This document shows positions 217-17,615 of a stretch of 31,480 nucleotides of DNA, piece after piece. The stretch lies in the IMG/VR virus record IMGVR_UViG_2531839484_000009, one strand, 5' to 3'. A model generated the notes under the pieces. It saw nothing but the letters and a program-made list of their open reading frames with translations, did not search any database and had not been told where the DNA came from. Position 1 is the stretch's first letter. Every line of letters starts with the position of its first letter. The DNA is from a virus (lineage: Duplodnaviria > Heunggongvirae > Uroviricota > Caudoviricetes). The position numbers and the translations under genes are program-made.

Positions 217-1935
217 ATGATTTTTAGGGATAGCTTGAGAGTATTACCTTATGGTCGAGTAGATAATGATTTCTTCCAGATAGAAGAAAGACGTTCATGG
301 AATGCAGGGCGATATTATTGGTCTAATAGAAGGATTTTTGGTTATATTGGAATTACTCAATCCAGTAATAAAGAGCTGAAAGATAAGTCGGGGAGAGAGG
401 GATTCATAAGAAACCAGGCTGCAAGAGAACTGAAAACTATTATATCTAATTTGTTAACTGAACTTGCTGATAGATTTTTTGGTTCACGTTCTGATGACCG
501 TAAAGAGCTTTTAGAACAAGTTAAGCGTGAAAAAGAGTTAAGAAAATCTGCTCAACAACAAGCTCGAAAATCAACACAAAAAAGTTTTTCAGAAGCTTTG
601 AAGAATCAGACACCAGTTCTTGATGCTTCCTTGGAGGCTGTTAAAAGGCTGAAAACTAAGCTTGATAAAACTGATGGTTCGTTAGATTTAAACTATCTTA
701 AAATTATAGACAGTGATCTTACAAACTTAGATGCGTTGCGCAGTGAAATTAAAACGCCTATCAAACCTCCAAAACTTGGAATGTATGAAGAGAAATATAG
801 AGACTACAGAGATAAATTTAATGAGTTCTCTGCGTATATTCTACAAATGAAGTTAGCAATTAATAAACTTGATTCTGAATTAAATAAACTTGAGCCTTCA
901 TTGTCAGCGAAAAATCACCTTGAAAAAAATCAAGGTATTATTAATTCTAAACTAACTAAGTTTAATAACACGATAGAGGAGAAGATACATTCTCTTTTAA
1001 AAAAATGGGCCGATGAAATAAAGGTTGATCGAAGTGATTATTATGCTAAAACTATATCAGTTGTTGATTCAATAGATAATGATTCACAAATTGAAAATGT
1101 GTTTAATTTGCTCGATAGTTTATATGTTGAGTCAGTTGATACCCTAACTTTCAAATATCAATCAATAATAAAAGGTCTCGATAGATTATTTGAAGGTATA
1201 AACTTAGATTCAGCATTCTCATTATCTGAAGAAGAACGCTCATATTTTGAAGAAAAAGCTAAAAGTTTAAACGCGCTTGCACAGTTAGGTATTAGTGTTG
1301 AGATAATATCTCATGAACTTGAAGAAATGGATTCTATGGTAACCAGAGGACTAAACTCTCTTCCTACTTCTGTAAAAGAACACCCTGGTTTTTCATTGGC
1401 GTTAAATGCTCACAGATCGCTTACTCAACAAATACGTTTCTTATCACCTTTGAAAATATCAGGTTATCAATCCAGGCAGAGAATAACTGGAAAAAATATC
1501 ATGGATTATGTCCTGAAGTTCTTTGGGGAGCGTTTCGAACGGCAACGAATAACTATTGAATTTAGTGAAGAGTTTAAGCAAATCGCAATAACAGATATAC
1601 CATCAAGGATCTATCCTGTTTTTACTAATATTATCAACAATGCAATGTATTGGGTCAGTCTGTCAAATAATAGGCTCATAAAGATTGGTTTTGTGAATTC
1701 TTTGGTTATCATAGCAAATTCTGGTCCGGCAATTGATACCGATGATATCCCGCGACTATTTGAACTATTTTATAGCAAAAGAGCAAATGGACATGGGGTA
1801 GGTCTGTATCTATGTCGAGAAAACCTTGCTGTTGCACATCATAAAATATGGTATTCAGAACCTGATGAAGGCGATAACTATTTAATAAAAGATGGCGCTA
1901 ATTTTGTGATCCAGTTCAATGGAGTGGAGTTCTAA
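217..1935 (+). CDS. Histidine-kinase-like protein: coiled-coil N-terminal region, HisKA-like H-box, C-terminal GHKL ATPase (HATPase_c)
   Basis: H-box-like IISHELEE; N-box NIINNAMYW; G1-like IDTDD; G2-like GHGVGLYL. No hydrophobic TM segment seen. No in-frame start between the stop at 88-90 and ATG 217. Confidence 0.55.
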   Translation: MIFRDSLRVLPYGRVDNDFFQIEERRSWNAGRYYWSNRRIFGYIGITQSSNKELKDKSGREGFIRNQAARELKTIISNLLTELADRFFGSRSDDRKELLEQVKREKELRKSAQQQARKSTQKSFSEALKNQTPVLDASLEAVKRLKTKLDKTDGSLDLNYLKIIDSDLTNLDALRSEIKTPIKPPKLGMYEEKYRDYRDKFNEFSAYILQMKLAINKLDSELNKLEPSLSAKNHLEKNQGIINSKLTKFNNTIEEKIHSLLKKWADEIKVDRSDYYAKTISVVDSIDNDSQIENVFNLLDSLYVESVDTLTFKYQSIIKGLDRLFEGINLDSAFSLSEEERSYFEEKAKSLNALAQLGISVEIISHELEEMDSMVTRGLNSLPTSVKEHPGFSLALNAHRSLTQQIRFLSPLKISGYQSRQRITGKNIMDYVLKFFGERFERQRITIEFSEEFKQIAITDIPSRIYPVFTNIINNAMYWVSLSNNRLIKIGFVNSLVIIANSGPAIDTDDIPRLFELFYSKRANGHGVGLYLCRENLAVAHHKIWYSEPDEGDNYLIKDGANFVIQFNGVEF

Positions 1936-1936
1936 T

Positions 1937-3685
1937 ATGACAGTGGCAAATTATAATTCTCTTGTCCAGAAAACTTTCTGCGAAAATGCAATTCGTTCCG
2001 TTGTCATGATTGATGACGATTTTCTGACGTATTCTGAATCAATCAGGGCGTTGAATAACGAAGTTGATTTAGACTACAACAAAATTGACTCATCTAAACG
2101 AGCCGCTACTCTTGAGAGCTTTTTTCAATCTAAAAATATGATTTGTGATGTTGACAATGGTTCTGTTAATTTCGATGTGGATCGGATTAGAAAATCAGAT
2201 CTTATTATTGTAGATTATCATCTTGATAATAATGCACCTGATAAAACACTTAAACCATTACAAGATTTGAAAGACTCCGATCATTTAAATATGATTGTAA
2301 TATATACTAGAGAGAATTTAGAAACGGTTTGGATGCAGATATCATCGACTCTCAAAGGTGCTCTGGATATCAACAGCTTGATCATTGACTACGATAATGA
2401 AGATGTCCAAAGTTATTGGGAAGACGTTGTATTACCGAACTTAAATGATAATGGTAATAAAGCTCTCACAAGAGATGAAACAATAGCCTATATTAAAGAC
2501 AGTAAGCCTTGTAGAAGAATTAAAAGATTAATACATGATGATGCTGTGTTGGAGGATCAAAAGGATAAAAACTTCATTGCAAAAATGATTGCAGAATATG
2601 CTGTGTCTAGAAATGCAATTATTTCTAGCAACACATCTGGCAATGTCATTCGGGGTGATGAAAGCGGAGTAAAATGGATTCAATGTGGTAATATCTTTGT
2701 CTCCCTATTTCATAAGGTTCAAGATGATCATGAAAACGATGGAGATAGGATTTGGCAAACTCTCAATGATTCTCTCATTGAATGGAAACCATCTTATTAT
2801 CAGTTAATAAAATCTGAAATTCAGAATGCAATCGAAGCTGAGGCTTTATCTTTTGTAAATCATTTGGCTAACGATCATTACGGTCAAGCTGCGTGGTTAA
2901 ATGAGATATTAAAATCAGACTCGCCTGATATTAGATGTAGAAATATTGACTTTGTATTTGGTAATTTATCAGAAGAGCTTTATCAAAGACTTAAAAATAA
3001 TAATACGCTGGATGAATTTATCAAAAGTGTTTTTGATAGCTATTCAAATGAATACGCTAACAGCGGAGTTGCTGCATTGCTCCAATATTGCTCTTCAAAA
3101 ATGGATCTGCCATCAAATAATGATACTTATCACGAAATGTATCATGCTTTAAATATGAATTTGTCTTCAAAGAATTTTGAAGATGGTCATATTTCTACTG
3201 GCACTATTTTCTTTGATACAGAGTCGAACAAATGGTATTTATGTGTATCTGCGGCATGTGATTTGGTTCCTACTCAGGGTAACGACCCTCACCATGTAAG
3301 ATTAAGTCCGCACAGGCTCATTAAAGTTCTGGAGCTTTTTAACGCCAGTCAGAGTAAAGCATTGCCATTTGCTGAACATTCGAAATATATATATGTAATG
3401 CATAAAAATCAAAGAAAATATCTCTCTATTTTCGAAGGGGATAAAACGCTTCCTGTTGTTGATTATATGGTGGTGTTGAATCATGGAACAACAGTTGATG
3501 GCGAAGAAAAAAATATTATTTCTGCCGTGTTTTTAAGTAATATGGATGGCAACGTGCAAAATGTTCCTGTCCGACTCAAACTTAAATCTCAACTGAGAAC
3601 TGGTTATGCAGAAAGATATCAGGCTATAGCGTCTCAGTATAGCTCAAGGATTGGTGTGGATTATGTATCAATGATGCTACCATAA
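1937..3685 (+). CDS. Receiver (REC)-like domain protein with ~450-aa uncharacterised C-terminal domain
   Basis: N-terminal motifs VVMIDDD, DLIIVDYHL and MIVIYT fit the REC beta1/beta3/beta4 pattern. ATG 1937 is preferred over ATG 1919 because GGAGTGGAG sits 7 nt upstream; it lies 1 nt after the kinase stop. No HTH output domain recognised. Confidence 0.5.
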   Translation: MTVANYNSLVQKTFCENAIRSVVMIDDDFLTYSESIRALNNEVDLDYNKIDSSKRAATLESFFQSKNMICDVDNGSVNFDVDRIRKSDLIIVDYHLDNNAPDKTLKPLQDLKDSDHLNMIVIYTRENLETVWMQISSTLKGALDINSLIIDYDNEDVQSYWEDVVLPNLNDNGNKALTRDETIAYIKDSKPCRRIKRLIHDDAVLEDQKDKNFIAKMIAEYAVSRNAIISSNTSGNVIRGDESGVKWIQCGNIFVSLFHKVQDDHENDGDRIWQTLNDSLIEWKPSYYQLIKSEIQNAIEAEALSFVNHLANDHYGQAAWLNEILKSDSPDIRCRNIDFVFGNLSEELYQRLKNNNTLDEFIKSVFDSYSNEYANSGVAALLQYCSSKMDLPSNNDTYHEMYHALNMNLSSKNFEDGHISTGTIFFDTESNKWYLCVSAACDLVPTQGNDPHHVRLSPHRLIKVLELFNASQSKALPFAEHSKYIYVMHKNQRKYLSIFEGDKTLPVVDYMVVLNHGTTVDGEEKNIISAVFLSNMDGNVQNVPVRLKLKSQLRTGYAERYQAIASQYSSRIGVDYVSMMLP

Positions 3686-3756: not shown

Positions 3757-4173
3757 TTATTTTTGTTTAAGTCTTCTAAGCTTCATGCATTCTAATGAGA
3801 ATAATAATAGAGTTGTGCTGTATATAAAGCCAGAGTTAGTTAATAACTTTAAATTTAATGCTTCAGGATTTTCACTGAGAAAGTGAAAGGCATAAACTAA
3901 GTATACAGCTAAAGTAGCCGTTCCAATTGTTGGTCCAATATCGCCTTGATCATGAGGTTCAAGGTTTACATTGAACTTGAAGATTAGCCATTCAAATCCC
4001 CAAGTAAAAAAAACAACTAATATCATGGCTGCGAATAATTTCGCGATGTTATCTGCTGATGGATTCATCAGAACAGATTGTTTCTGAAAAAATTCACAAA
4101 GTGAGAGTCCGAAAAAAATAAAAAAAAGTGGTCTGGAACTAAATTTTTCAAAAACTTTGAATAGGGTTTCCAT
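3757..4173 (-). CDS. Small integral membrane protein (several hydrophobic helices), function unknown
   Basis: 138-aa ORF with hydrophobic stretches LFFIFFGLSL, AAMILVVFFTW, ATLAVYLVYAF, LLLFSL; AT-rich; convergent with the kinase/receiver pair. Confidence 0.4.
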   Translation of the reverse strand: METLFKVFEKFSSRPLFFIFFGLSLCEFFQKQSVLMNPSADNIAKLFAAMILVVFFTWGFEWLIFKFNVNLEPHDQGDIGPTIGTATLAVYLVYAFHFLSENPEALNLKLLTNSGFIYSTTLLLFSLECMKLRRLKQK

Positions 4174-4211
4174 TTTCTTTACCTTCAGGATTATATTAGC
4201 TATTCTGATAC

Positions 4212-5441
4212 TTAGGCTACCAGAGCATTTGATCTTTGAGCTTGAACGTAATCACTCCACCATTGCATCAAACTCTGTCGCTCTATCAGATATTCTGCAC
4301 GATTGTATGCTGCGATAATTTCATCTTTTTTCGAGTGGGCAAGCGCTGCCTCAAGAACTTCAGCTCTGAATTTACCAGACTCCTCTGCCGCTGTTCGTGC
4401 AATAGAACGCATACCGTGAGCTACAAGCTCGCCTCCGAACCCCATTCGGATGATAGCTGCGTTGGCTGTTTGTTCATGCATATGATTAAGAGGCGCTTTT
4501 ATGCTGGGGAAAACCCATTCTCTATGCCCACTTATTGATTTCATTAATTCAAGGATGCGCAAAGCTTCTTTACTCAAAGGAACTTTGTGAAGCTTTTTCA
4601 TTTTCATGAAATCAGCAGGAATGTTCCAAATGCTGTTGGTTGTATCAATATCAGACCACCTTGCGCGAACGGCTTCACCCGGACGAACCCATGTCAACAA
4701 TTGCCATTCAATTAGCATACGTGTTTCCAACCGGATTGACGCATTCGTCAAAGATTCCATAAACCTTGGCAATTCGCTTGGGGGAAGGGCAGGCATATTT
4801 TGCTTTTTTGGTTTACTGAATCTTTGACCAAGGTTGTCAGCCGGGTTGAACTCAATAAGTTCTTCAGTAGCTGCCCACCGGAAGATTTCATTCAGACGTG
4901 AAATGATACGGCGTAGAGTTTCCAATACGCCTCGTTGCTCAATAGGATCAAGGTGTTGTTTTAAGAGCTTAGGTCGGATCTCATTGATAGGGACATTACC
5001 CAGACCGGGAAAGACATTTCTCTCTAAGCTGCGCCAGATGTCTGCTGCATGGTCTTGTGAGATACCTGATGTCTTTACCTTCTCATCTAACCATTTCCGC
5101 GCTACGGCTTGGAGAGTGTGCTCAGTAGCACTCTTTAATGCCTTCGCCTTATCGTTGTTATGGATTTGGGGATCAACACCATTTGCCAGAAAGGAGAGAT
5201 ATTCATCACGTAAGGCTCTGGCTCTTGCAAGGGTAAGGTGAGGATATGTCCCAAGGCTCATTTTGGTTCTTTTCTTGCTCACTGGTACTGCATACCTGAA
5301 ATACCAATTTTTCTTGCCTCCTTTCGCCAAAGGAGCGATTCGTAGAATCAGACCATCACCGTCAAACAAGTTGATTTCTTTATCGGCTGGCTTGGTGCTT
5401 TTGATTTCAGTGTCAGTGAGCTTCTTAGCGATTTTTGCCAT
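4212..5441 (-). CDS. int: Tyrosine integrase, P4-like family with N-terminal arm-binding domain
   Basis: N-terminus KLTDTEIKSTKP...LFDGDGLILRIAPLAKGGKKNWYFRY is typical of P4-type integrases; C-terminal catalytic region HGMRSIARTAA. Start ATG 5441 has GAGGG upstream; ATG 5483 is an alternative in-frame start. Confidence 0.85.
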   Translation of the reverse strand: MAKIAKKLTDTEIKSTKPADKEINLFDGDGLILRIAPLAKGGKKNWYFRYAVPVSKKRTKMSLGTYPHLTLARARALRDEYLSFLANGVDPQIHNNDKAKALKSATEHTLQAVARKWLDEKVKTSGISQDHAADIWRSLERNVFPGLGNVPINEIRPKLLKQHLDPIEQRGVLETLRRIISRLNEIFRWAATEELIEFNPADNLGQRFSKPKKQNMPALPPSELPRFMESLTNASIRLETRMLIEWQLLTWVRPGEAVRARWSDIDTTNSIWNIPADFMKMKKLHKVPLSKEALRILELMKSISGHREWVFPSIKAPLNHMHEQTANAAIIRMGFGGELVAHGMRSIARTAAEESGKFRAEVLEAALAHSKKDEIIAAYNRAEYLIERQSLMQWWSDYVQAQRSNALVA

Positions 5442-5538
5442 TTTGGGACCCTCGGTTTTTGGACCCTTCTTAGTGGGTCCCATTCAGGGTGCCATAACTC
5501 GTAGTTCTCAGCAATTCTCACTGGACGACAATAGACGT

Positions 5539-5571
5539 AAAAAAGCCCGCAGAGCTTGTGCTGTGTGGGCT
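5539..5571 (-). terminator. Imperfect hairpin plus T6 run immediately downstream of the ssrA 3' fragment (minus strand)
   Basis: Minus strand reads GCCCACACAGC-acaa-GCTCTGCGGGC followed by TTTTTT; 9 of 11 stem pairs. Confidence 0.4.
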
Positions 5572-5606
5572 TAGTAGACTTCATTGAACTTCAAACAACT
5601 AAAAAG

Positions 5607-5651
5607 TGGTGGAGCTGGCGGGAGTTGAACCCGCGTCCGAAATTCCTACAT
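5607..5651 (-). repeat. ssrA: 45-bp copy of the 3' end of tmRNA gene ssrA including the CCA end; att core / integration-site remnant
   Basis: Minus strand matches the recalled E. coli ssrA 3' terminus ...ATGTAGGAATTTCGGACGCGGGTTCAACTCCCGCCAGCTCCACCA over 45 nt, then diverges into AT-rich sequence. Confidence 0.75.
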
Positions 5652-5767
5652 ACCATTTTCACTACAGAAAAAATAATGATTTATGTTTAAAAACAATATG
5701 TTAGTGTTATGTGGTGTTTGGCAGTTTTATCTGTTTTTAAAGCTCTGCCGCCAAAATGTCGCCATCA

Positions 5768-6799
5768 TCAATCGCGTCTCAGCTGGGGTAAGCGAGACAT
5801 CTTGGCGGGTTGATAAGCTATAGTGATCAAGAACTGAGAATACTTGAACCAATTCTCTAGAATCCCTTCACCATATATCAAAATTTTATCTTCTATAGGG
5901 AAGTACAAGTTTACCACTTCATTTCTGCAAGTATCCAAGAAGGCGTAGGTTATCTCTTCTAAGGATTGCAGTGATTCGTACAGAGTGCCAAAATCATAAA
6001 ATGGTGAATAAACTTGGTATTTATTATAACTATCATTTATTACAAATGACTTTTTATAATGAAATCCACCTAAACACAACAGTTTACAAGTTTTTTCATA
6101 AATAATCATAACTCCTACAAATATTCTCATCTTTGTTGTGCAAAGTTCCTCTGTAGGATGTATTTGATTTTCACTCTCGGATAATTGCTTGAGTCTTGCG
6201 TTGATTTCTACCCAACATTTGTGTAAATCAATAACAAATTGCTCATTAATATCTAATTGTTGAGAATCATCAGGCGTAGATTGTGGGTATGCTTTTCTAT
6301 ATAGTTCTTGTGGATGTTTTATAAAATGTTGGTAGATTGCTTCAGCTTGAGCTTCCTGAACCGGGTAGTAGCTGCCTATTCTTTTTCCTTCGATTTTTTT
6401 ATATAAATCAAGATGAAATTTCATGTGGTTGTAATATAAATCTACCCTGTTTTTCCTTTCTGCCTCTGAGATCTGTTTTTCTGTTTGTTTGGTTCTGTGT
6501 AGGTTGTTTACTATTGAAACTAAAGGTACTGCAGATGCAAGGATGAGTAATGGTAATTTCGAGATATCTAAAAATCTCTCATAACCGTGACTTGTAAGAC
6601 TAAAAGAGTGTATTTTATCTATCCAGACAAAAGAACCAAAGTAAAGGCTGGTGAATAAAGGTAGGCCTATTGCAGCCCAGAACAAGGGTTGTTGGAACAA
6701 GCTTCTATGATCGAGAACATAAAGTCGATATTTTATAAATAAGAATATACAACCTAATAAAACGGATAGGTACATAAATGTGCTAATGCTTTTTTCCAT
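5768..6799 (-). CDS. Membrane-anchored hypothetical protein (N-terminal TM helices plus ~250-aa soluble domain); prophage cargo between int and att
   Basis: ATG 6799 lies 2 nt after the int stop (6802-6804) on the same strand; N-terminal hydrophobic segments YLSVLLGCIFLFI, LFWAAIGLPLFTSLYFGSFVW, LPLLILASAVPLVSIV; AT-rich relative to int. Confidence 0.5.
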   Translation of the reverse strand: MEKSISTFMYLSVLLGCIFLFIKYRLYVLDHRSLFQQPLFWAAIGLPLFTSLYFGSFVWIDKIHSFSLTSHGYERFLDISKLPLLILASAVPLVSIVNNLHRTKQTEKQISEAERKNRVDLYYNHMKFHLDLYKKIEGKRIGSYYPVQEAQAEAIYQHFIKHPQELYRKAYPQSTPDDSQQLDINEQFVIDLHKCWVEINARLKQLSESENQIHPTEELCTTKMRIFVGVMIIYEKTCKLLCLGGFHYKKSFVINDSYNKYQVYSPFYDFGTLYESLQSLEEITYAFLDTCRNEVVNLYFPIEDKILIYGEGILENWFKYSQFLITIAYQPAKMSRLPQLRRD

Positions 6800-6801
6800 T
6801 A

Positions 6802-7821
6802 TCAGTATCCCAACATAGCCAGTGGATTTTTTGTTACAGCATCTTCTAAATGATCTGGCGAAAAATGAGCATAAACCATCGTCATTTTTATATCAGAGTG
6901 ACCAAGAATATCGCGTAGTACCAATATGTTTCCGCCATTCATCATGAAGTGACTGGCGAATGTATGGCGCAACACGTGTGTGCACTGGCCTTCAGGCAGG
7001 TCTATACCGGCTCGTTTTACTGCGCGCTCAAAAGCTTTTCTGCAGGGCGTGAATAGTTTCCCTCTGTTTTTGGGGAGTTCTTCATATAGCTCCTGAGATA
7101 TCGGTACGGTTCGGTTTTTCTTGCCTTTAGTTTTGGTGTAGGTGATCCGGTATTTTGATAATTGATGGCCCTGCAGGTTTTCGGCTTCACTCCATCTCGC
7201 GCCGGTGGCCAGACATATTTTTGCAACCGTCAGCAGACTAGAGCTTTGAGAATCGGCGCAGGCATCCAGCAGACGTTTAATTTCTTCCGGGGTCAGGAAC
7301 GCCAATTCACTCTCAGCAATTTTAAATGTTGGCAGCCCAGCAAGCGGGTTGGGGGCTGACCAGTGGCCCAGCTTTTTCAGTGTACCAAAAACAGATGATA
7401 GATTGCGCTGTTCAAGGTTTACCGTGCGGGGCTTAACGGGCGACATAAACGTGCCATCTTCATTTCGTACTTCACCTTTTAACCGTGCTTCGCGGTATTT
7501 CGTAAAGTCACCGGCTGTCAGTTCTGAAGCGATGGGATCGCCTAGACCATTACAGATAATACTAAGTTTCGCCATGAGGCGCTTGGGGTCTGTGAGTGTT
7601 TGACCATACAGGGAATACCACAGCTCAATTAATTCTGATAGATGTCGCCGATCTTCCTTTTCCCCCAGCCATGGTTTTTTGTTCACTTCTTCCATTGTGA
7701 AGCTTTCAAATGCAATAGCTTCGCCTTTGGTAGCAAATTGCTTACGCACGCGCTTACCATTGCGTCCATTGGGATAGCACTCACACAACCATTTTCCGTT
7801 CGGCTGTTTTCTGATGGTCAT
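6802..7821 (-). CDS. int: Tyrosine integrase, P2/186 type
   Basis: 339 aa; C-terminal catalytic region HVLRHTFASHFMMNGGNILVLRDILGHSDIKMTMVYAHF; located downstream of the repressor gene as in P2/186. Confidence 0.9.
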   Translation of the reverse strand: MTIRKQPNGKWLCECYPNGRNGKRVRKQFATKGEAIAFESFTMEEVNKKPWLGEKEDRRHLSELIELWYSLYGQTLTDPKRLMAKLSIICNGLGDPIASELTAGDFTKYREARLKGEVRNEDGTFMSPVKPRTVNLEQRNLSSVFGTLKKLGHWSAPNPLAGLPTFKIAESELAFLTPEEIKRLLDACADSQSSSLLTVAKICLATGARWSEAENLQGHQLSKYRITYTKTKGKKNRTVPISQELYEELPKNRGKLFTPCRKAFERAVKRAGIDLPEGQCTHVLRHTFASHFMMNGGNILVLRDILGHSDIKMTMVYAHFSPDHLEDAVTKNPLAMLGY

Positions 7822-7824
7822 AAG

Positions 7825-8475
7825 TTAGAGGTTCTTGATTACTTTGACTGCACGTCCTACGACTTCCACATCATCTACAGAACATTCAAATGAAGTGTCA
7901 TCTTGGTTAACTACTATTTTGTTTCCGGGTATGCGCGCAATTTTGACGATGTTTTTCATACCGTCGATGTCTATGAGCCAAATTCCGTTACTAAGCTGTT
8001 TTGCTGATGTATCAACAATGTAATTGCCGTCGTTAGCTTTGACGTACAAACAATATTCGGCTTTTCCGGGTATCAAAGTCTGATCAAGGAAAACATCCCC
8101 CATCTCTTCGAGCGTTCCGTTCTCAATGGTTGCCTGCCTTACTGATGGGATAACTATCTTTGAAAGGGGGCGAACTGTAGGTGAACTCTCATTTTTGAAC
8201 TTATTTTTTTCTTCTGTTTGAGGATACATTTCCCCTTGGCCCGTTGTCAGCCAAAGAAGAGAAATACCTGTTTCAAGGGCACATTGAATAACCCAGTCAG
8301 CAGGGAAGCTATCACGTAACATCCTGTTTGCCATGGTGCTTTTTGATGCTTCGAGGTGTTCAACCAACGCAATCTGAGTGTTGAAACCATAGGCAGTCAT
8401 CAGCCTTTTGATGGTCTCTCTTCCTCCCGTATTTGCACCTGTATTAATCTTCAAGATGAACTCTCCATTTGACAA
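7825..8475 (-). CDS. cI: CI-type immunity repressor (186 CI-like)
   Basis: N-terminal region TAYGFNTQIALVEHL...CALETGISLLWLTTGQG resembles the 186 CI HTH region as recalled; divergent from apl-like gene. Start could alternatively be the internal Met at 8400. Confidence 0.7.
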   Translation of the reverse strand: MSNGEFILKINTGANTGGRETIKRLMTAYGFNTQIALVEHLEASKSTMANRMLRDSFPADWVIQCALETGISLLWLTTGQGEMYPQTEEKNKFKNESSPTVRPLSKIVIPSVRQATIENGTLEEMGDVFLDQTLIPGKAEYCLYVKANDGNYIVDTSAKQLSNGIWLIDIDGMKNIVKIARIPGNKIVVNQDDTSFECSVDDVEVVGRAVKVIKNL

Positions 8476-8504
8476 TCCAATAACGAGATCGTATTTTTGT
8501 ATTT

Positions 8505-8531: not shown

Positions 8532-8577
8532 GGGGTTAAACATCATAAAACGAGCTTAAACCAAGAGATACTGCACT

Positions 8578-8820
8578 ATGAGCACAGATATTTCAATTCG
8601 TGTACCAAAAGAGATGGCTACGCCTGCTGAATTCGCTGAATGGGAAGGGATTTCCCGTGGGTCTGTTTACCAAAAAATTCACCATGGCCAACTCGCTAAG
8701 TACATGGTCAAGAAAGAAAAAAACAAAGGCCGCGTAAGCCTGCGTTATCTGATGTACAAAACTGATCAGGTCCGTGAATCCCTCGGTCATTCCAACTTCC
8801 GCGTCATTGTTGGTAAGTAA
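8578..8820 (+). CDS. Apl/Cox-like small DNA-binding protein (excisionase / lytic-switch regulator)
   Basis: 80-aa ORF divergent from the repressor gene at the position of apl/cox; basic, HTH-like segment. Confidence 0.5.
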   Translation: MSTDISIRVPKEMATPAEFAEWEGISRGSVYQKIHHGQLAKYMVKKEKNKGRVSLRYLMYKTDQVRESLGHSNFRVIVGK

Positions 8821-14635: not shown

Positions 14636-16606
14636 ATGATAAGAAATATATATATAAAGAATTTTAAAACATTAAATATGACATCATATATCGAACTTAA
14701 AGAATGTTCATTTTTGTGTGGCGCTAACAGTAGTGGTAAAAGTTCACTTATACAAACACTTCTAATGTTAGCTCAAACTTTTTCTAATAGATATCAAGAT
14801 GATAGTATGGTTTTAAATGGGTCTTTAGCAAGACTGGGTTCATTTACAGATATCAAAAAGCACAACTCTACAGAGGAAGTTATTACTATTGGTTTCACTT
14901 TTGATGTTGATGAGGCGTATTATCTTCGTGATAATACAATAAATTCAATTAGATGTGAGTTTGTTATTGGTAGAAGAGACCGCTCTGTAGCAAAAATAGA
15001 CGAAGATTATCATCCTATAATAATTTCTGCGAAATATTTTATTAGTAAGGGGGGGAATAATAAACAACAGGATTATATACACTTCCAATGTTCAGGTGAT
15101 TATTTTTATTCTAAAGAAGTGGTATATGACGTAGTGTCATTCAACACCTCTGAATATAATGATTTGAAGAAGAGGTTTCCAAGTCTAAAGATTTTAAGTA
15201 TTGCTAAATCTGGGGATTTAATTCCTTCTTTAATAAATATTCAATATGATAAAACAAAAAAAGAAAGCTATGAAATAATTAATTTTTTAACTAGAAAGCA
15301 TAGCACACAGAGGGGGGGGTATTTTTTAGATGATGAGGATTTTGGTGATGATATTCTTATCCCTAGAGAATTCTCCGCAAGAGTTTTGGAGTTGATAAAG
15401 GAAGAACGTAATAAATTATTGGACGAGTTTGACTTGCCAAACGATCTTCTTGACATCATGACACATAGTCATATTGCTAAAGATGATTATATCTCCTATA
15501 GCTATGACAAAAATAAATTATCGCAGAGAGCTAAGGAATTATTAAACGAAATTAAAGGTAATTTCATTGAAATAAACTATTCTTTACAATCAAGTGATAT
15601 TCCTTTAATTTTTGTAAATAAAGCTGTTAGTATAGTTGATTGGAAATCTTGGTTAGATGCTTTGGATGAGAAGAAAAGGAAAAGTTTAATCGTATTGTTA
15701 GAAAAGCACAGGGACAGTCTACAAGCAATATGGTATAACAATATTGATGTTAAAATGACAAGCGACGTATATAGTTCGCACCTTTTACAAGATGTAGAAA
15801 ATGCAATGGTGTACTGTTTCTCGCGAAGCCTAAAGTACCTTGGGCCTCTACGACATGAACCTCAGGCTGTCTATTCATCGAGCCCTTATGATGCAAACAC
15901 CGTAGGTTTGAAAGGTGAATTTACCGCCTCTCTTCTTCATCGAAATCGCGCTAATTTTATATGTTACAGCTCCCCTTCTATAATTAATGGTAAAATAAAC
16001 GTTAGAGAAAAGTATGATACTCTAAACAACGCTTGTAAAGAGTGGTTGTCATTTTTAGGTGTTGTTGAGGAAGTAAGAACTACTGATAAAGGTAAATTAG
16101 GCTATGAGTTATACGTTAAAACTTCTAGCGGCGAAAAATGGCAAGATCTCACTCACGTAGGTGTTGGTGTCAGTCAAGTACTGCCTATTGTATTGATGTT
16201 CTTGAATTCAGATCCTTCAGATGTGTTAATTTTTGAACAACCGGAATTACATTTACATCCTAAAGTTCAATCTAAATTATGTGACCTTTTTCTTATAATG
16301 GCAAATACTGGTCGCCAGTGCATTATTGAAACTCACAGTGAGTATATGATCAATAGATTGAGGCTTAGAGTTGCGCAAGATTTAGACAATAATTACCTCA
16401 AAAAATCAGCGCTATATTTTATAAATAAAGTTAATGGGATATCAGAATTCCAAAATATAAATATTAACAAGTATGGTGCGATTCCTGAATGGCCTGAAGA
16501 TTTCTTTGATCAAACAGATAAGGAAGTTGAAAAGATTTTAATGGAGGCAAGCATAAAGAAAAATAAAGAAAAAGCTAAGAGGTTTACCAATGACAGCGGT
16601 TATTAA
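14636..16606 (+). CDS. ABC/OLD-type (AAA_15/AAA_21-like) ATPase with Walker A and Walker B separated by ~500 aa
   Basis: Walker A GANSSGKSS near the N-terminus; Walker-B-like VLIFEQPELHLHP and H-loop-like IIETHS near residue 530-560; strongly AT-rich. Confidence 0.7.
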   Translation: MIRNIYIKNFKTLNMTSYIELKECSFLCGANSSGKSSLIQTLLMLAQTFSNRYQDDSMVLNGSLARLGSFTDIKKHNSTEEVITIGFTFDVDEAYYLRDNTINSIRCEFVIGRRDRSVAKIDEDYHPIIISAKYFISKGGNNKQQDYIHFQCSGDYFYSKEVVYDVVSFNTSEYNDLKKRFPSLKILSIAKSGDLIPSLINIQYDKTKKESYEIINFLTRKHSTQRGGYFLDDEDFGDDILIPREFSARVLELIKEERNKLLDEFDLPNDLLDIMTHSHIAKDDYISYSYDKNKLSQRAKELLNEIKGNFIEINYSLQSSDIPLIFVNKAVSIVDWKSWLDALDEKKRKSLIVLLEKHRDSLQAIWYNNIDVKMTSDVYSSHLLQDVENAMVYCFSRSLKYLGPLRHEPQAVYSSSPYDANTVGLKGEFTASLLHRNRANFICYSSPSIINGKINVREKYDTLNNACKEWLSFLGVVEEVRTTDKGKLGYELYVKTSSGEKWQDLTHVGVGVSQVLPIVLMFLNSDPSDVLIFEQPELHLHPKVQSKLCDLFLIMANTGRQCIIETHSEYMINRLRLRVAQDLDNNYLKKSALYFINKVNGISEFQNININKYGAIPEWPEDFFDQTDKEVEKILMEASIKKNKEKAKRFTNDSGY

Positions 16607-17615
16607 ATTTGAATATTTAATATCTCCATTGATATGCACTGGTGGGCAGGTAGATGAGCATGTCAATGGTCTGCGATTATTAAAAGAATTAGTTAGTAGT
16701 TCTGACATAGACGTCAAATGCGAGGACTCCATACTCAGCAATATGCAAGAGGCTGGTTATTATCCATGTGCTAAAATATTGAGTAGGGCATTCCCTGGTG
16801 GTGAAGATTGCGTTCATAGCGCTCAAGATGTTTCAAAAATAATAAATAATATAATTAGCCATTTCGAAGAGTGCAATCCTGAAGTTACTTCTCATGAAAT
16901 CGAGTGGGACTCGTTTACGGTTGTGCCGCCTATAGAAACAATATCAGATGAGAGAAAAAATAATGTCGAAATTTTCTTGAGGAATATTCTTTCAAGAAAA
17001 TTTCTATTAAGTGAAGAGTTTTCTTTCTTTTATTCTCAAAGAAATAAGCCAATTCTTCAGTCCCAAAAGTTTTCATTAAGCGGTACAATTAGCGATATAT
17101 ACCCTGCGGATAGTGTAGCAATACCCATTGAATTAAGTAATGAAATAATTGCTCACGGTAATATTAATGATTTCATCAATAATATTGATGGGTACTCTTT
17201 ATATAAAATGGCTAGTAATATATCCGCTCTTAAATGTGCTCTCTTTTTTGGTTGTGTAAATTTTTTGAAAAATAATTATACAGGTGAAAAGTTCGAATGG
17301 GATGATTTCAAAATAGGAGCAGATTTTTTTGATTCGTTGCTAAGACATCAAGGTGCTTTTGAACAAGAGTTTTCCTCAGTAGTTTATGAAACTATAGTGC
17401 AAGTTTTATGTCGCCATCCTAAAAATGAAGTAAAACCATTTAGAGTATCTTCCAAGTCTACTGAACAAAGAACCCATGGTGATTTAAGGGCCTTTCGCAC
17501 CCATATCACTTCTAGACATCAAGCATTGAGACTAATGTTTTGGGTTGATTCCAATCAAATAATCACATTGGCAAATATTGGTCCGAAATTTGAAGAATCT
17601 ATTTCTTTGCCATGA
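16590..17615 (+). CDS. Uncharacterised partner protein of the ATPase (341 aa), putative effector
   Basis: ATG 16590 overlaps the ATPase gene by 17 nt, AGAGG 8 nt upstream; no recognisable HNH or clear TOPRIM motifs; C-terminal RAFRTH / RTHITSRH fit an Rx4-6H pattern. Confidence 0.5.
   Translation: MTAVIKFEYLISPLICTGGQVDEHVNGLRLLKELVSSSDIDVKCEDSILSNMQEAGYYPCAKILSRAFPGGEDCVHSAQDVSKIINNIISHFEECNPEVTSHEIEWDSFTVVPPIETISDERKNNVEIFLRNILSRKFLLSEEFSFFYSQRNKPILQSQKFSLSGTISDIYPADSVAIPIELSNEIIAHGNINDFINNIDGYSLYKMASNISALKCALFFGCVNFLKNNYTGEKFEWDDFKIGADFFDSLLRHQGAFEQEFSSVVYETIVQVLCRHPKNEVKPFRVSSKSTEQRTHGDLRAFRTHITSRHQALRLMFWVDSNQIITLANIGPKFEESISLP

What the first reader, a model, noticed from the sequence alone, without database searches (positions are those of the whole stretch)
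5768..6799. AT-rich membrane-anchored cargo gene translationally coupled to the prophage integrase
Seen: the int stop (minus strand, 6802-6804) is followed after 2 nt by the ATG of a 343-aa ORF with two or three N-terminal hydrophobic helices and a ~250-aa soluble domain; the gene is clearly more AT-rich than int and fills the space between int and the att core. Inference: a moron expressed from the lysogenic repressor/int transcript, hence present in lysogens; such membrane-tethered proteins at this position are often superinfection-exclusion or abortive-infection factors.
Basis: partly seen in the sequence, partly recalled or inferred. Interest (0 to 1): 0.55.

Follow-up and report, generated by a model that had tools for sequence, protein, structure and literature searches.

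The report
Prophage membrane protein behind integrase
A real but uncharacterised three-pass inner-membrane protein gene sits at the very end of a P2/186-like prophage, directly behind the integrase; it belongs to a large, highly variable family that looks like an undescribed anti-phage defence gene, although no function has been shown.

Summary
ORF 5768-6799 (-) starts 2 nt after the integrase stop, encodes 343 aa with three N-terminal TM helices, and has 34% GC against 47% for int. The window is an E. coli Fels-2/186-like prophage integrated in ssrA. The ORF is its last gene and ends 3 nt before the Int arm-type sites, 116 nt before the 45-nt att core. It is a real gene: dN/dS is 0.05-0.15 and the AlphaFold model reaches pLDDT 92. 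It belongs to PHROG 17460 ("unknown function"), with 629 clusters at 50% identity. It has no Pfam, NCBIfam or PADLOC match and no informative structural relative. In 82 of 86 related loci a family member directly follows this type of integrase, mostly within a few nt. Int stays about 90% identical in most while the cargo falls to 24-40%. Fels-2 has nothing in the slot, and RE-2010/Cartapus and Klebsiella phages carry unrelated genes. Pseudomonas and Dickeya homologues lie in defence islands (AbiTii, Lamassu-like, Gabija-like, Mrr). The most likely function is a lysogen-expressed, membrane-anchored anti-phage protein made from the cI-int operon. That function is inferred, not shown. A HEPN lead was rejected. 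The int-att defence hotspot is already published; this family is not.

The parts
5768..6799 (-). ORF343, the cargo gene (PGAP: hypothetical protein WP_001676483.1; PHROG 17460)
   Evidence: ORF call and sequence; PGAP annotation in NZ_AP022036.1; phrog_17460 E 5e-203 over 343/343; dN/dS 0.05-0.15
6506..6799 (-). aa 1-98: membrane module with three TM helices. TM1 is poorly conserved. TM2, the periplasmic loop and TM3 are conserved (L34, Q37, F40, P47, W59, G72, F76, P83, L87).
   Evidence: Hydropathy and charge distribution; AF2 helices 2-23, 38-61, 70-88 and 90 onward; conservation in 140 diverse members
6395..6505 (-). aa 99-135: juxtamembrane 'stalk' helix continuous with TM3. It carries the family's invariant motif NNxHRTxQTEKQI...KNxxDxYYxHxK, a polar stripe on one face (H101, Q105, Q109, K116, D120, K127).
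   Evidence: Alignments A1, A2 and A4; per-column conservation; AF2 helix 90-135, pLDDT >90
5771..6394 (-). aa 136-343: fast-diverging cytoplasmic alpha/beta domain (beta-hairpin 137-160, helices 186-208, 217-240 and 270-290, strands 250-265 and 321-336)
   Evidence: AF2 model; C-domain identity to other alleles is 17-37% where N-terminal identity is 36-66%; 178 of 196 C-domains are still linked at BLASTP E<=1e-3
6802..7821 (-). P2/186-type tyrosine integrase; its stop lies 2 nt before the ORF343 start
   Evidence: Pfam Int_N and Phage_integrase
7825..8475 (-). 186-type CI repressor, first gene of the lysogenic operon (the PGAP start gives 209 aa)
   Evidence: Pfam Phage_CI_repr and Phage_CI_C
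8568..8596 (-). pL-like promoter candidate (TTGAAA-17-CAGTAT, 8/12) in the same position relative to apl as 186 pL; it faces the pR-like promoter at 8469..8497 (+)
   Evidence: Custom scan; pR-like site 10/12; 186 curated features. Consensus match and synteny only.
5746..5764 (-). Two Int arm-type binding sites (TGGCGACA, TGGCGGCA on the - strand), the conserved right border of the cargo slot
   Evidence: Invariant across Fels-2, RE-2010, Cartapus, two Klebsiella phages and the window; matches the 186 arm-site consensus YAYCGCCAYTY; positions
5607..5651 (-). att core: 45 nt identical to the 3' end of ssrA (the displaced copy; the intact ssrA lies at the other prophage end)
   Evidence: intact 363-nt ssrA next to smpB in NZ_AP022036.1; the Rfam hit 5607..5783 is an over-extended fragment
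5543..5557 (-). Terminator-like hairpin plus T-run after the ssrA fragment; the likely end of the cI-int-ORF343 transcript in the prophage
   Evidence: pattern match only

Best explanation
ORF343 is a genuine accessory gene of an ssrA-integrating Fels-2/186-like prophage. It is inserted as an exchangeable cassette in the few nucleotides between the int stop codon and the Int arm-type sites of attP. The protein is an inner-membrane protein with three TM helices (N-out, C-in). TM3 continues into a long cytoplasmic stalk helix that carries the family's invariant polar motif (HRTxQTEKQI...KN..D....H.K). A divergent alpha/beta domain of about 210 aa follows. The gene has no detectable promoter of its own and starts 2 nt after int. 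It is therefore most likely made from the lysogenic cI-int transcript (pL in lysogens, pE during establishment). Its most likely role is single-gene anti-phage defence for the lysogen, of the abortive-infection or exclusion type. In this model the variable cytoplasmic domain recognises something produced by an infecting phage. The conserved TM/stalk module then acts at the membrane, probably as an oligomer that perturbs membrane integrity. What is shown: gene reality, topology signals, architecture, slot, cassette behaviour, family size, and lack of known relatives. What is inferred: transcription and coupling, the defence function, and the sensor/effector split and oligomeric pore.
For: The gene is real and under constraint. 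dN/dS is 0.05-0.15 in both halves, and the AF2 model has pLDDT 92.3 and pTM 0.77. It behaves as a hotspot cassette. Fels-2 has an empty slot, while RE-2010/Cartapus carry a 401-aa gene, Klebsiella phages a 516-aa gene, and Kp4865-2 a 27%-identical homologue. In 82 of 86 IMG/VR and GTDB loci a family member directly follows a CI-Int pair, with the start mostly at -4, -1, +1 or +2 nt. Int is about 90-94% identical in most, but the cargo N-terminus is 36-66% and the C-terminus 17-37% identical. In L037 and L038 the cargo dS (about 0.1) is far below the int dS (about 0.5), which indicates cassette transfer between backbones. GC is 0.34, as for the OLD-like defence cargo in the same prophage. For the lysogenic operon, the 186 curated record and matching promoter geometry apply. 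The int-att interval of P2-like phages has been reported as a minor defence hotspot holding 3% of P2 defence systems (PMC13586616). Defence-island context comes from homologues outside prophages: AbiTii, a Lamassu-like cluster (LmuB_C/MC3/CTD7) and Mrr_cat around P0247; a Gabija-like OLD-TOPRIM ATPase and UvrD around P0243; UvrD, an SMC-like ATPase, an RT and LmuB_C around P0191. Other members sit at prophage ends. The architecture fits a sensor/effector protein. The membrane module and one-sided polar stripe are conserved and the cytoplasmic domain is variable. Published anti-phage TM proteins are generally taken to be suicide effectors (PMC9122126). The membrane-anchored prophage Abi protein PdpSau is a precedent (PMC10127798).
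Against: There is no functional or expression data. ORF343 has no hit in PADLOC. Only scattered weak TM-effector hits appear among 140 relatives. The other cargos of the slot are also unannotated, so the slot is not shown here to be a defence slot. Close alleles show purifying selection and no positive selection. Neighbourhood evidence comes from a handful of loci whose proteins are 37-40% identical to ORF343. The invariant His/Gln/Asp/Lys stripe could instead be a catalytic or ligand site of a membrane enzyme. No structural relative was found to support a pore.
Confidence: 0.5

Rival explanations
1. It is a superinfection-exclusion protein that blocks genome entry at the inner membrane (like P22 SieA, T4 Imm or HK97 gp15) and does not sense infection or kill the cell. 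In this reading the conserved TM/periplasmic-loop module contacts a conserved host or phage ejection component.
For: The protein is in the inner membrane and placed for expression in lysogens. The most conserved parts are TM2, the periplasmic loop (G72, F76, S80, K81) and TM3.
Against: The large and most variable part is cytoplasmic by the positive-inside rule, whereas entry blockers usually expose their specificity to the periplasm. Homologues also occur as stand-alone genes in chromosomal defence islands with Abi-type neighbours.
Confidence: 0.15
2. It is a lysogenic-conversion or host-fitness membrane protein unrelated to phage defence, for example a membrane enzyme or transporter-like protein that uses the invariant His/Gln/Glu/Asp/Lys residues at the membrane-cytoplasm interface.
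For: Polar residues are invariant at the interface (H101, R102, Q105, Q109, K116, N117, D120, H125). Prophage int-att junctions also carry conversion genes (general knowledge). There is no match to any known defence family.
Against: There is no Pfam or NCBIfam enzyme or transporter match in 140 members. Extreme allelic diversity in a fixed slot and defence-island neighbours are more typical of conflict genes.
Confidence: 0.2
3. It serves the phage's own lysogeny module, for example by modulating Int/Apl activity, prophage stability (addiction) or induction in response to membrane signals. This would explain its tight linkage to this particular integrase family.
For: In 82 of 86 sampled loci it follows the same integrase type with coupled stop/start. 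It lies in the cI-int operon.
Against: Fels-2 and many relatives with about 90% identical Int lack it or carry unrelated genes. Homologues occur without any integrase in lambdoid prophage ends and chromosomal islands. The sampling was biased towards enterobacterial prophages by the search pattern.
Confidence: 0.07
4. It is a membrane-tethered HEPN ribonuclease toxin.
For: One clade gives sub-threshold Pfam HEPN_RiboL-PSP hits (best E 2e-5, 25.1 bits against a cut-off of 28.4) with a canonical RNxxxH at a fixed position.
Confidence: 0.03

Closest known systems
PHROG 17460 (phage protein family, 'unknown function')
   Same: ORF343 matches the profile end to end (343/343, E 5e-203). All 140 diverse relatives tested also match it.
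   Different: The PHROG carries no function, domain description or literature. Nothing beyond membership is learned from it.
Orf69 of coliphage 186 (gene between int and attP in the lysogenic operon)
   Same: Same slot and strand: cI -> int -> small gap -> ORF -> Int arm-type sites -> attP core, with the lysogenic-operon terminator beyond attP.
   Different: Orf69 is 83 aa and was not recovered as a homologue in any search here. 186 integrates in a tRNA-Ile gene and not in ssrA. The function of Orf69 is also unknown.
Defence hotspots of P2-like phages (gpA-gpQ old/tin locus, Z/fun locus, and the minor int-att hotspot described in PMC13586616)
   Same: Variable, AT-rich cargo sits between conserved landmarks and is swapped between otherwise similar phages. 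The int-att interval is explicitly listed as holding 3% of P2 defence systems. The same prophage carries an OLD/AriA/NsnB-like ATPase at the gpA-gpQ hotspot.
   Different: ORF343 is not detected by PADLOC models. Neither Rousset et al. 2022 (PMC9122126) nor the candidate-testing sections of PMC13586616 show a gene from this slot being tested.
Membrane-anchored single-protein abortive-infection factors (Lactococcus AbiP; S. aureus prophage PdpSau, PMC10127798)
   Same: Both are prophage- or MGE-encoded with an N-terminal membrane anchor and a cytoplasmic domain. PdpSau alters membrane potential and permeability on infection.
   Different: Those proteins have one TM helix and an OB-fold nucleic-acid-binding domain. 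ORF343 has three TMs, a conserved polar stalk and an unrelated alpha/beta domain. No sequence or structural similarity was detected.
Lambda RexAB / mycobacteriophage Sbash gp30-gp31 (lysogen-expressed sensor plus membrane channel)
   Same: They are co-transcribed with the repressor in lysogens. The logic of a cytoplasmic sensor coupled to a membrane effector is the one proposed here.
   Different: They are two-protein systems. Similarity to RexB or gp31 was not tested directly. The resemblance is functional analogy from general knowledge and the abstract of PMC6426596.
CBASS/Pycsar transmembrane effectors (PADLOC 2TM_IV, PycTM, 2TM/4TM 'Effector')
   Same: They are short multi-TM effectors of defence systems. 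Four of 140 relatives give weak hits (best E 4.3e-5).
   Different: ORF343 gives no hit. The hits are few and scattered over several models, as expected for hydrophobic-segment similarity. There is no cyclase partner gene in the slot.

Membership tests
PHROG 17460 | Significant full-length match to the family profile | tested here: met
   E 5.1e-203, residues 1-343 on profile 1-343; 140 of 140 relatives also match at E<=1e-5
HEPN superfamily (Pfam HEPN_RiboL-PSP) | Rx4-6H catalytic motif at the conserved position | tested here: not met
   ORF343 has SENQIH where clade P0016/P0017/P0027 has RNAIAH/RNLIAH. About a dozen of 196 C-domains carry RNxxxH at that fixed position; 24 match a looser pattern.
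HEPN superfamily (Pfam HEPN_RiboL-PSP) | Profile match above Pfam's gathering score | tested here: not met
   ORF343 has no hit at E<=1. The best relative scores 25.1 bits against a 28.4 cut-off. None of 140 diverse members hits at E<=0.05.
HEPN superfamily (Pfam HEPN_RiboL-PSP) | Structural match to a solved HEPN domain | tested here: inconclusive
Known anti-phage defence families (PADLOC-DB v2.0.0) | HMM match to a model of a known or candidate system | tested here: not met
   No families for ORF343 at E<=0.01; only sparse weak TM-effector hits among 140 relatives
Hotspot cargo of P2-like prophages (int-att hotspot) | Lies between conserved landmarks (int stop and Int arm-type sites/att core) | tested here: met
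   same borders in most of 86 loci
Hotspot cargo of P2-like prophages (int-att hotspot) | Presence/absence and replacement polymorphism among closely related phages | tested here: met
   Fels-2 is empty; RE-2010/Cartapus and Klebsiella phages carry unrelated genes; 21 of 5426 E. coli genomes carry this gene
Hotspot cargo of P2-like prophages (int-att hotspot) | Anti-phage activity of the cargo | not testable with these tools
   Needs plaque or efficiency-of-plating assays; only contextual support is available
Moron in the strict sense (Hendrix: autonomous transcription unit) | Own promoter and terminator flanking the inserted gene | tested here: not met
   No sigma-70-like site of 9/12 or better on the - strand between cI and the ORF. 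The gene starts 2 nt after int. The only terminator-like site downstream is the one after the ssrA fragment.
Translationally coupled gene pair (int-ORF343) | Stop and start codons overlapping or within a few nt on the same strand | tested here: met
   TGAtaATG; family-wide spacings are mostly -4, -1, +1 or +2 nt
Translationally coupled gene pair (int-ORF343) | Downstream translation depends on upstream translation | not testable with these tools
   Requires reporter fusions with premature stops in int
tmRNA (Rfam RF00023; PGAP 'ssrA' feature overlapping the ORF's 3' end) | Complete tmRNA with tRNA-like domain, tag reading frame and pseudoknots | tested here: not met
   ARAGORN finds none. The Rfam hit spans 177 nt for a 374-position model at 50.2 bits. 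Only 45 nt (5607..5651) match the intact ssrA.

The most novel reading that the evidence does not exclude
PHROG 17460 is a previously unrecognised, widespread family of single-gene anti-phage proteins. A conserved 3-TM module plus polar stalk would oligomerise into a membrane-permeabilising effector, gated by a rapidly diversifying cytoplasmic sensor domain. In ssrA-integrating Peduoviridae its expression would be hard-wired to the cI-int lysogenic operon by translational coupling to integrase. The lysogen would then be armed from the moment of establishment, and alleles would be swapped as cassettes between the int stop and the Int arm sites.
Probability: 0.35. Interest if true: 0.65.

Novelty: new member of a known kind. 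Interest (0 to 1): 0.5.

Why it matters
If the defence reading is right, this adds a large family to the catalogue of prophage-borne immunity genes: 629 clusters at 50% identity, with the exact E. coli protein seen on at least 1000 contigs. Current detection tools miss it. It would also give substance to the recently noted int-att hotspot of P2-like phages. The architecture makes a simple test system for how single-protein membrane Abi factors are triggered: an invariant polar stalk at the membrane face, a hypervariable cytoplasmic domain, and no structural relative. The exact cassette borders (int stop on one side, Int arm-type sites on the other) also show how cargo can be exchanged without disturbing integration. 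If the gene turns out to be a conversion or fitness factor instead, it remains a common unannotated membrane protein of Enterobacteriaceae lysogens.

Tried and rejected
1. HEPN RNase. This was raised by a precomputed PF18735 tag on P0016 and sub-threshold Pfam hits. It was rejected for ORF343 because the motif is absent, is restricted to one clade, and no HEPN hit appears in 140 diverse members.

2. The Rfam/PGAP 'tmRNA' overlapping the ORF's 3' end. It is an over-extended hit; only 45 nt are ssrA.

3. The conserved 'GDTLAAE' C-terminal tail of many homologues. I first read it as a vestige of an int 3' end, because P0023 continues with 'HLEDVVTKNPL'. The better explanation is ORFs reading into the two Int arm-type sites. 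The P0023 case remains unexplained.

4. Single-sequence AF2 was useless (pLDDT 36). The 69-sequence alignment was needed.

6. Pfam, NCBIfam and PADLOC on ORF343 found nothing. The alternative cargos of the slot also gave nothing.

7. The search for related loci with the most diverse alignment (A4) failed for lack of a conserved stretch. The GTDB scan with A2 gave only 6 loci.

8. Literature searches for the accession, the PHROG id and descriptive terms found no study of this family.

9. A chance ORF or pseudogene was rejected by dN/dS and conservation.

10. A lipoprotein reading (LLGC at aa 14-17) was rejected because the Cys is not conserved.

Full report
**Observation.** On the minus strand the integrase ORF (6802..7821) ends with TGA at 6804..6802. 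Two bases later an ATG at 6799 opens a 343-codon ORF that ends at 5768. A 19-residue hydropathy scan finds three hydrophobic segments, at about aa 5-24, 40-60 and 81-98. The loop after TM1 and the stretch after TM3 are basic; aa 99-140 contain 11 K/R. The positive-inside rule therefore gives N-out/C-in, with about 245 residues in the cytoplasm. GC is 0.341 for the ORF, 0.470 for int and 0.51-0.57 for gpA, portal and terminase. The ORF does not abut the att core. It stops 3 nt before two Int arm-type sites (5746..5764), and the core lies 116 nt downstream.

**Setting.** The window is E. coli chromosome. The phage is a 186/Fels-2-like member of the P2 family. It has 186-type CI (7825..8475), int, an Apl/Cox-like gene, CII, gpA, portal and terminase. 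It is integrated in ssrA. Only the last 45 nt of ssrA (5607..5651) are present next to ORF343. In a near-identical genome the intact 363-nt ssrA lies at the far end of the prophage beside smpB. The Rfam and PGAP 'tmRNA' feature 5607..5783, which overlaps the ORF's end, is an over-extended fragment. Beyond the fragment comes a second, P4/CP4-57-type integrase and another AT-rich island.

**Is it a gene?** Yes. Against alleles 75-99% identical, dN/dS is 0.05-0.15 in both the N- and C-terminal parts. The exact protein is on record from at least 1000 contigs, always named 'hypothetical protein'. A full HMMER scan of 1.84 billion cluster representatives finds 629 relatives at E<=1e-3. With a 69-sequence alignment AlphaFold2 gives pLDDT 92.3 and pTM 0.77; without the alignment it gives 36.

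**Anatomy.** The model has helices 2-23 and 38-61, two short helices at 70-88, and one continuous helix at 90-135. That long helix is TM3 running on into the cytoplasm. A long beta-hairpin (137-160) follows, then a helical and beta domain to residue 336. In 140 diverse relatives conservation is concentrated in aa 28-135. L34, Q37, P83, H101 and Q105 are invariant. F40, P47, W59, G72, F76, L87, R102, T106, Q109, I110, K116, N117 and D120 are at least 90% conserved. TM1 and everything after residue 136 average about 20%. On the stalk helix the conserved polar residues H101, Q105, Q109, K116, D120 and K127 recur every 3-4 residues, so they lie on one face. A strictly conserved polar face next to a hypervariable domain suggests a homo-oligomer interface or conduit, or an invariant ligand or partner. 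It does not suggest packing against the variable domain. This point is inference. The C-domains, though only 17-37% identical between alleles, still form essentially one BLAST-linked set (178 of 196 at E<=1e-3). They are therefore one fast-diverging domain and not swapped unrelated domains.

**The slot.** Alignment of the int-to-att interval of Fels-2, RE-2010, Cartapus, two Klebsiella phages and the window shows an invariant block. It begins ATGGCGRCAnnnTGGCGRCAG and runs into the ssrA core. The two TGGCGRCA repeats match the Int arm-type consensus annotated in phage 186 (YAYCGCCAYTY on the other strand). In Fels-2 this block starts 3 nt after the int stop, so the slot is empty. RE-2010 and Cartapus carry a 401-aa gene there, annotated in one record as RES-like. 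Klebsiella phage ST437-OXA245phi4.1 carries a 516-aa gene that overlaps the int stop. Kp4865-2 carries a 27%-identical relative of ORF343. Phage 186 itself has an 83-aa Orf69 in the same place. Only 21 of 5426 complete E. coli genomes hold the window's gene; one of these is a copy at 78% nucleotide identity, split into two ORFs, with an IS between it and int.

**Comparative survey.** I examined 86 loci recovered from IMG/VR and GTDB with the family motif. In 82 a family member lies directly downstream of a CI-Int pair of this type. The start codon is mostly at -4, -1, +1 or +2 nt from the int stop. The arm sites lie either just after the stop or inside the last codons. The second arrangement explains a conserved C-terminal 'GDTLAAE' tail seen in 19 of 199 family proteins: those ORFs read into the arm sites. 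Int is about 90-94% identical in most of these loci, while the cargo is 24-46% identical overall. In L037 and L038 the reverse holds at synonymous sites, with cargo dS about 0.1 and int dS about 0.5. The same allele has therefore moved between diverged backbones. The gene behaves as an exchangeable cassette with fixed borders. The sample is biased towards enterobacterial prophages by the search pattern, and 13 loci are copies of the window's allele.

**Expression (inferred).** The curated 186 record describes a lysogenic operon, pL/pE -> cI -> int -> orf69, that terminates beyond attP. The window has a strong pR-like site at 8469..8497 (+). It also has a pL-like site at 8596..8568 (-), positioned at the start of the apl-like gene exactly as in 186, although only 8 of 12 positions match. 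No site of 9/12 or better lies between cI and ORF343 on the coding strand. The first terminator-like hairpin downstream is the one after the ssrA fragment, at 5557..5543. ORF343 is therefore most likely the third cistron of the lysogenic transcript. Its start is placed for coupling to int, and a weak GGGA lies 8 nt upstream. None of this is measured.

**Evidence on function.** Three lines point to phage defence.
- The int-att interval of P2-like prophages has been reported as a minor defence hotspot, holding 3% of P2 defence systems (PMC13586616). The same prophage also carries an OLD/AriA/NsnB-like ATPase pair of the same low GC at the classical gpA-gpQ hotspot.
- Family members outside this slot sit at other prophage termini. 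In Pseudomonas and Dickeya they are stand-alone genes in defence islands. P0247 lies between AbiTii and a Lamassu-like LmuB_C/MC3/CTD7 cluster plus Mrr_cat. P0243 lies near a Gabija-like OLD-TOPRIM ATPase and UvrD helicase. P0191 lies near a UvrD helicase, an SMC-like ATPase, a reverse transcriptase and LmuB_C.
- A conserved membrane module joined to a hypervariable cytoplasmic domain is the layout expected of a single-protein sensor/effector. Membrane-anchored prophage Abi proteins such as PdpSau and AbiP are precedents (PMC10127798). TM proteins in known systems are generally regarded as suicide effectors (PMC9122126).

Several points count against this reading. There is no experiment. No known-defence HMM matches. 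The other cargos of the slot are just as anonymous. Close alleles show purifying selection and no positive selection. The neighbourhood evidence is a handful of loci.

**Verdict.** My best estimate is about 0.5 for an anti-phage role through the membrane. The main rivals are an entry-blocking exclusion protein (0.15), a non-defence conversion or fitness membrane protein (0.2), and a lysogeny-module function (0.07). The hotspot is already in the literature. The protein family, its invariant stalk motif and its exact cassette borders are not described in anything I could find. I rate it a new member of a known kind (prophage hotspot cargo and candidate defence gene) with moderate interest.

Noticed in passing
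window 217..3685 (+), 3757..4173 (-), 4212..5483 (-): A second integrative element sits in tandem at ssrA. A P4/CP4-57-type integrase (Arm-DNA-bind_3, Phage_int_M, Phage_integrase) directly follows the displaced ssrA 3' end. An AT-rich pair follows: a HATPase_c + HEF_HK protein (572 aa) overlapping a Response_reg_2 (PF19192) protein (588 aa). There are no PADLOC hits. It looks like an uncharacterised two-gene conflict-type module.
   Followed up: partly
window 14636..16606 (+) and 16590..17615 (+): The classical P2 gpA-gpQ hotspot holds a 656-aa OLD/AriA-like ABC ATPase (PADLOC NsnB E 4e-78, HEC-03B, AriA, Old, GajA). It overlaps a 341-aa partner with no Pfam, PADLOC or NCBIfam match. GC is 0.32-0.34 against about 0.5 for the flanking core genes.
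   Followed up: partly
window 5607..5783 (-): Rfam (50.2 bits, just above the gathering score of 47) and PGAP in related genomes call a 177-nt 'tmRNA/ssrA' here that overlaps the last 16 nt of ORF343. Only 45 nt (5607..5651) are ssrA sequence. The rest is the attP arm and the ORF's end, so this is an annotation artefact.
   Followed up: yes
window 5746..5764; homologues P0010-P0030, P0056, P0068, P0108 etc.: In many alleles the cargo ORF reads into the two Int arm-type sites. This gives otherwise unrelated C-termini a shared 'GD(T/I)LAAE' tail (19 of 199 family proteins) and serves as a built-in marker that those genes occupy the same slot. P0023 continues past it with 'HLEDVVTKNPLFNL', which resembles an integrase C-terminus. 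That case is unexplained.
   Followed up: partly
L037, L038 (IMG/VR) versus window 5768..7821: Synonymous divergence is about 0.1 in the cargo gene but about 0.5 in the adjacent int. The same cargo allele has been transferred between diverged phage backbones, with a recombination joint near the int 3' end.
   Followed up: partly
L004 (E. coli EC96, NZ_CP060748.1) 4162..6290: A copy of the cargo gene at 78% nucleotide identity is split into two ORFs (591 and 441 nt). It is separated from int by an ISKpn26 insertion, an example of decay of the locus.
   Followed up: no
L013 6191..7381, L023 7093..8286, L104 7082..8686: In some Enterobacter and Citrobacter prophages the family gene is followed, still before the arm sites, by a second unannotated gene (396-397 aa or 534 aa; no Pfam or PADLOC match). 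This may be a two-gene variant of the cargo.
   Followed up: partly
L008/L009 3230..5854 and L111 283..1287: In Pseudomonas cichorii and a related metagenomic contig the family member is preceded on the same strand by a UvrD-like helicase gene (gap about 140 nt). This may be a helicase plus membrane-protein pairing, and it is not seen in the enterobacterial prophage slot.
   Followed up: no
L010-L012 (Proteus mirabilis) 3985..6858: A minimal remnant is fixed between host genes in many P. mirabilis assemblies (index lists 242 blocks). It comprises a 302-aa protein, a P2-type integrase and a 285-aa family member. The int-cargo pair seems to persist after loss of the rest of the prophage.
   Followed up: no
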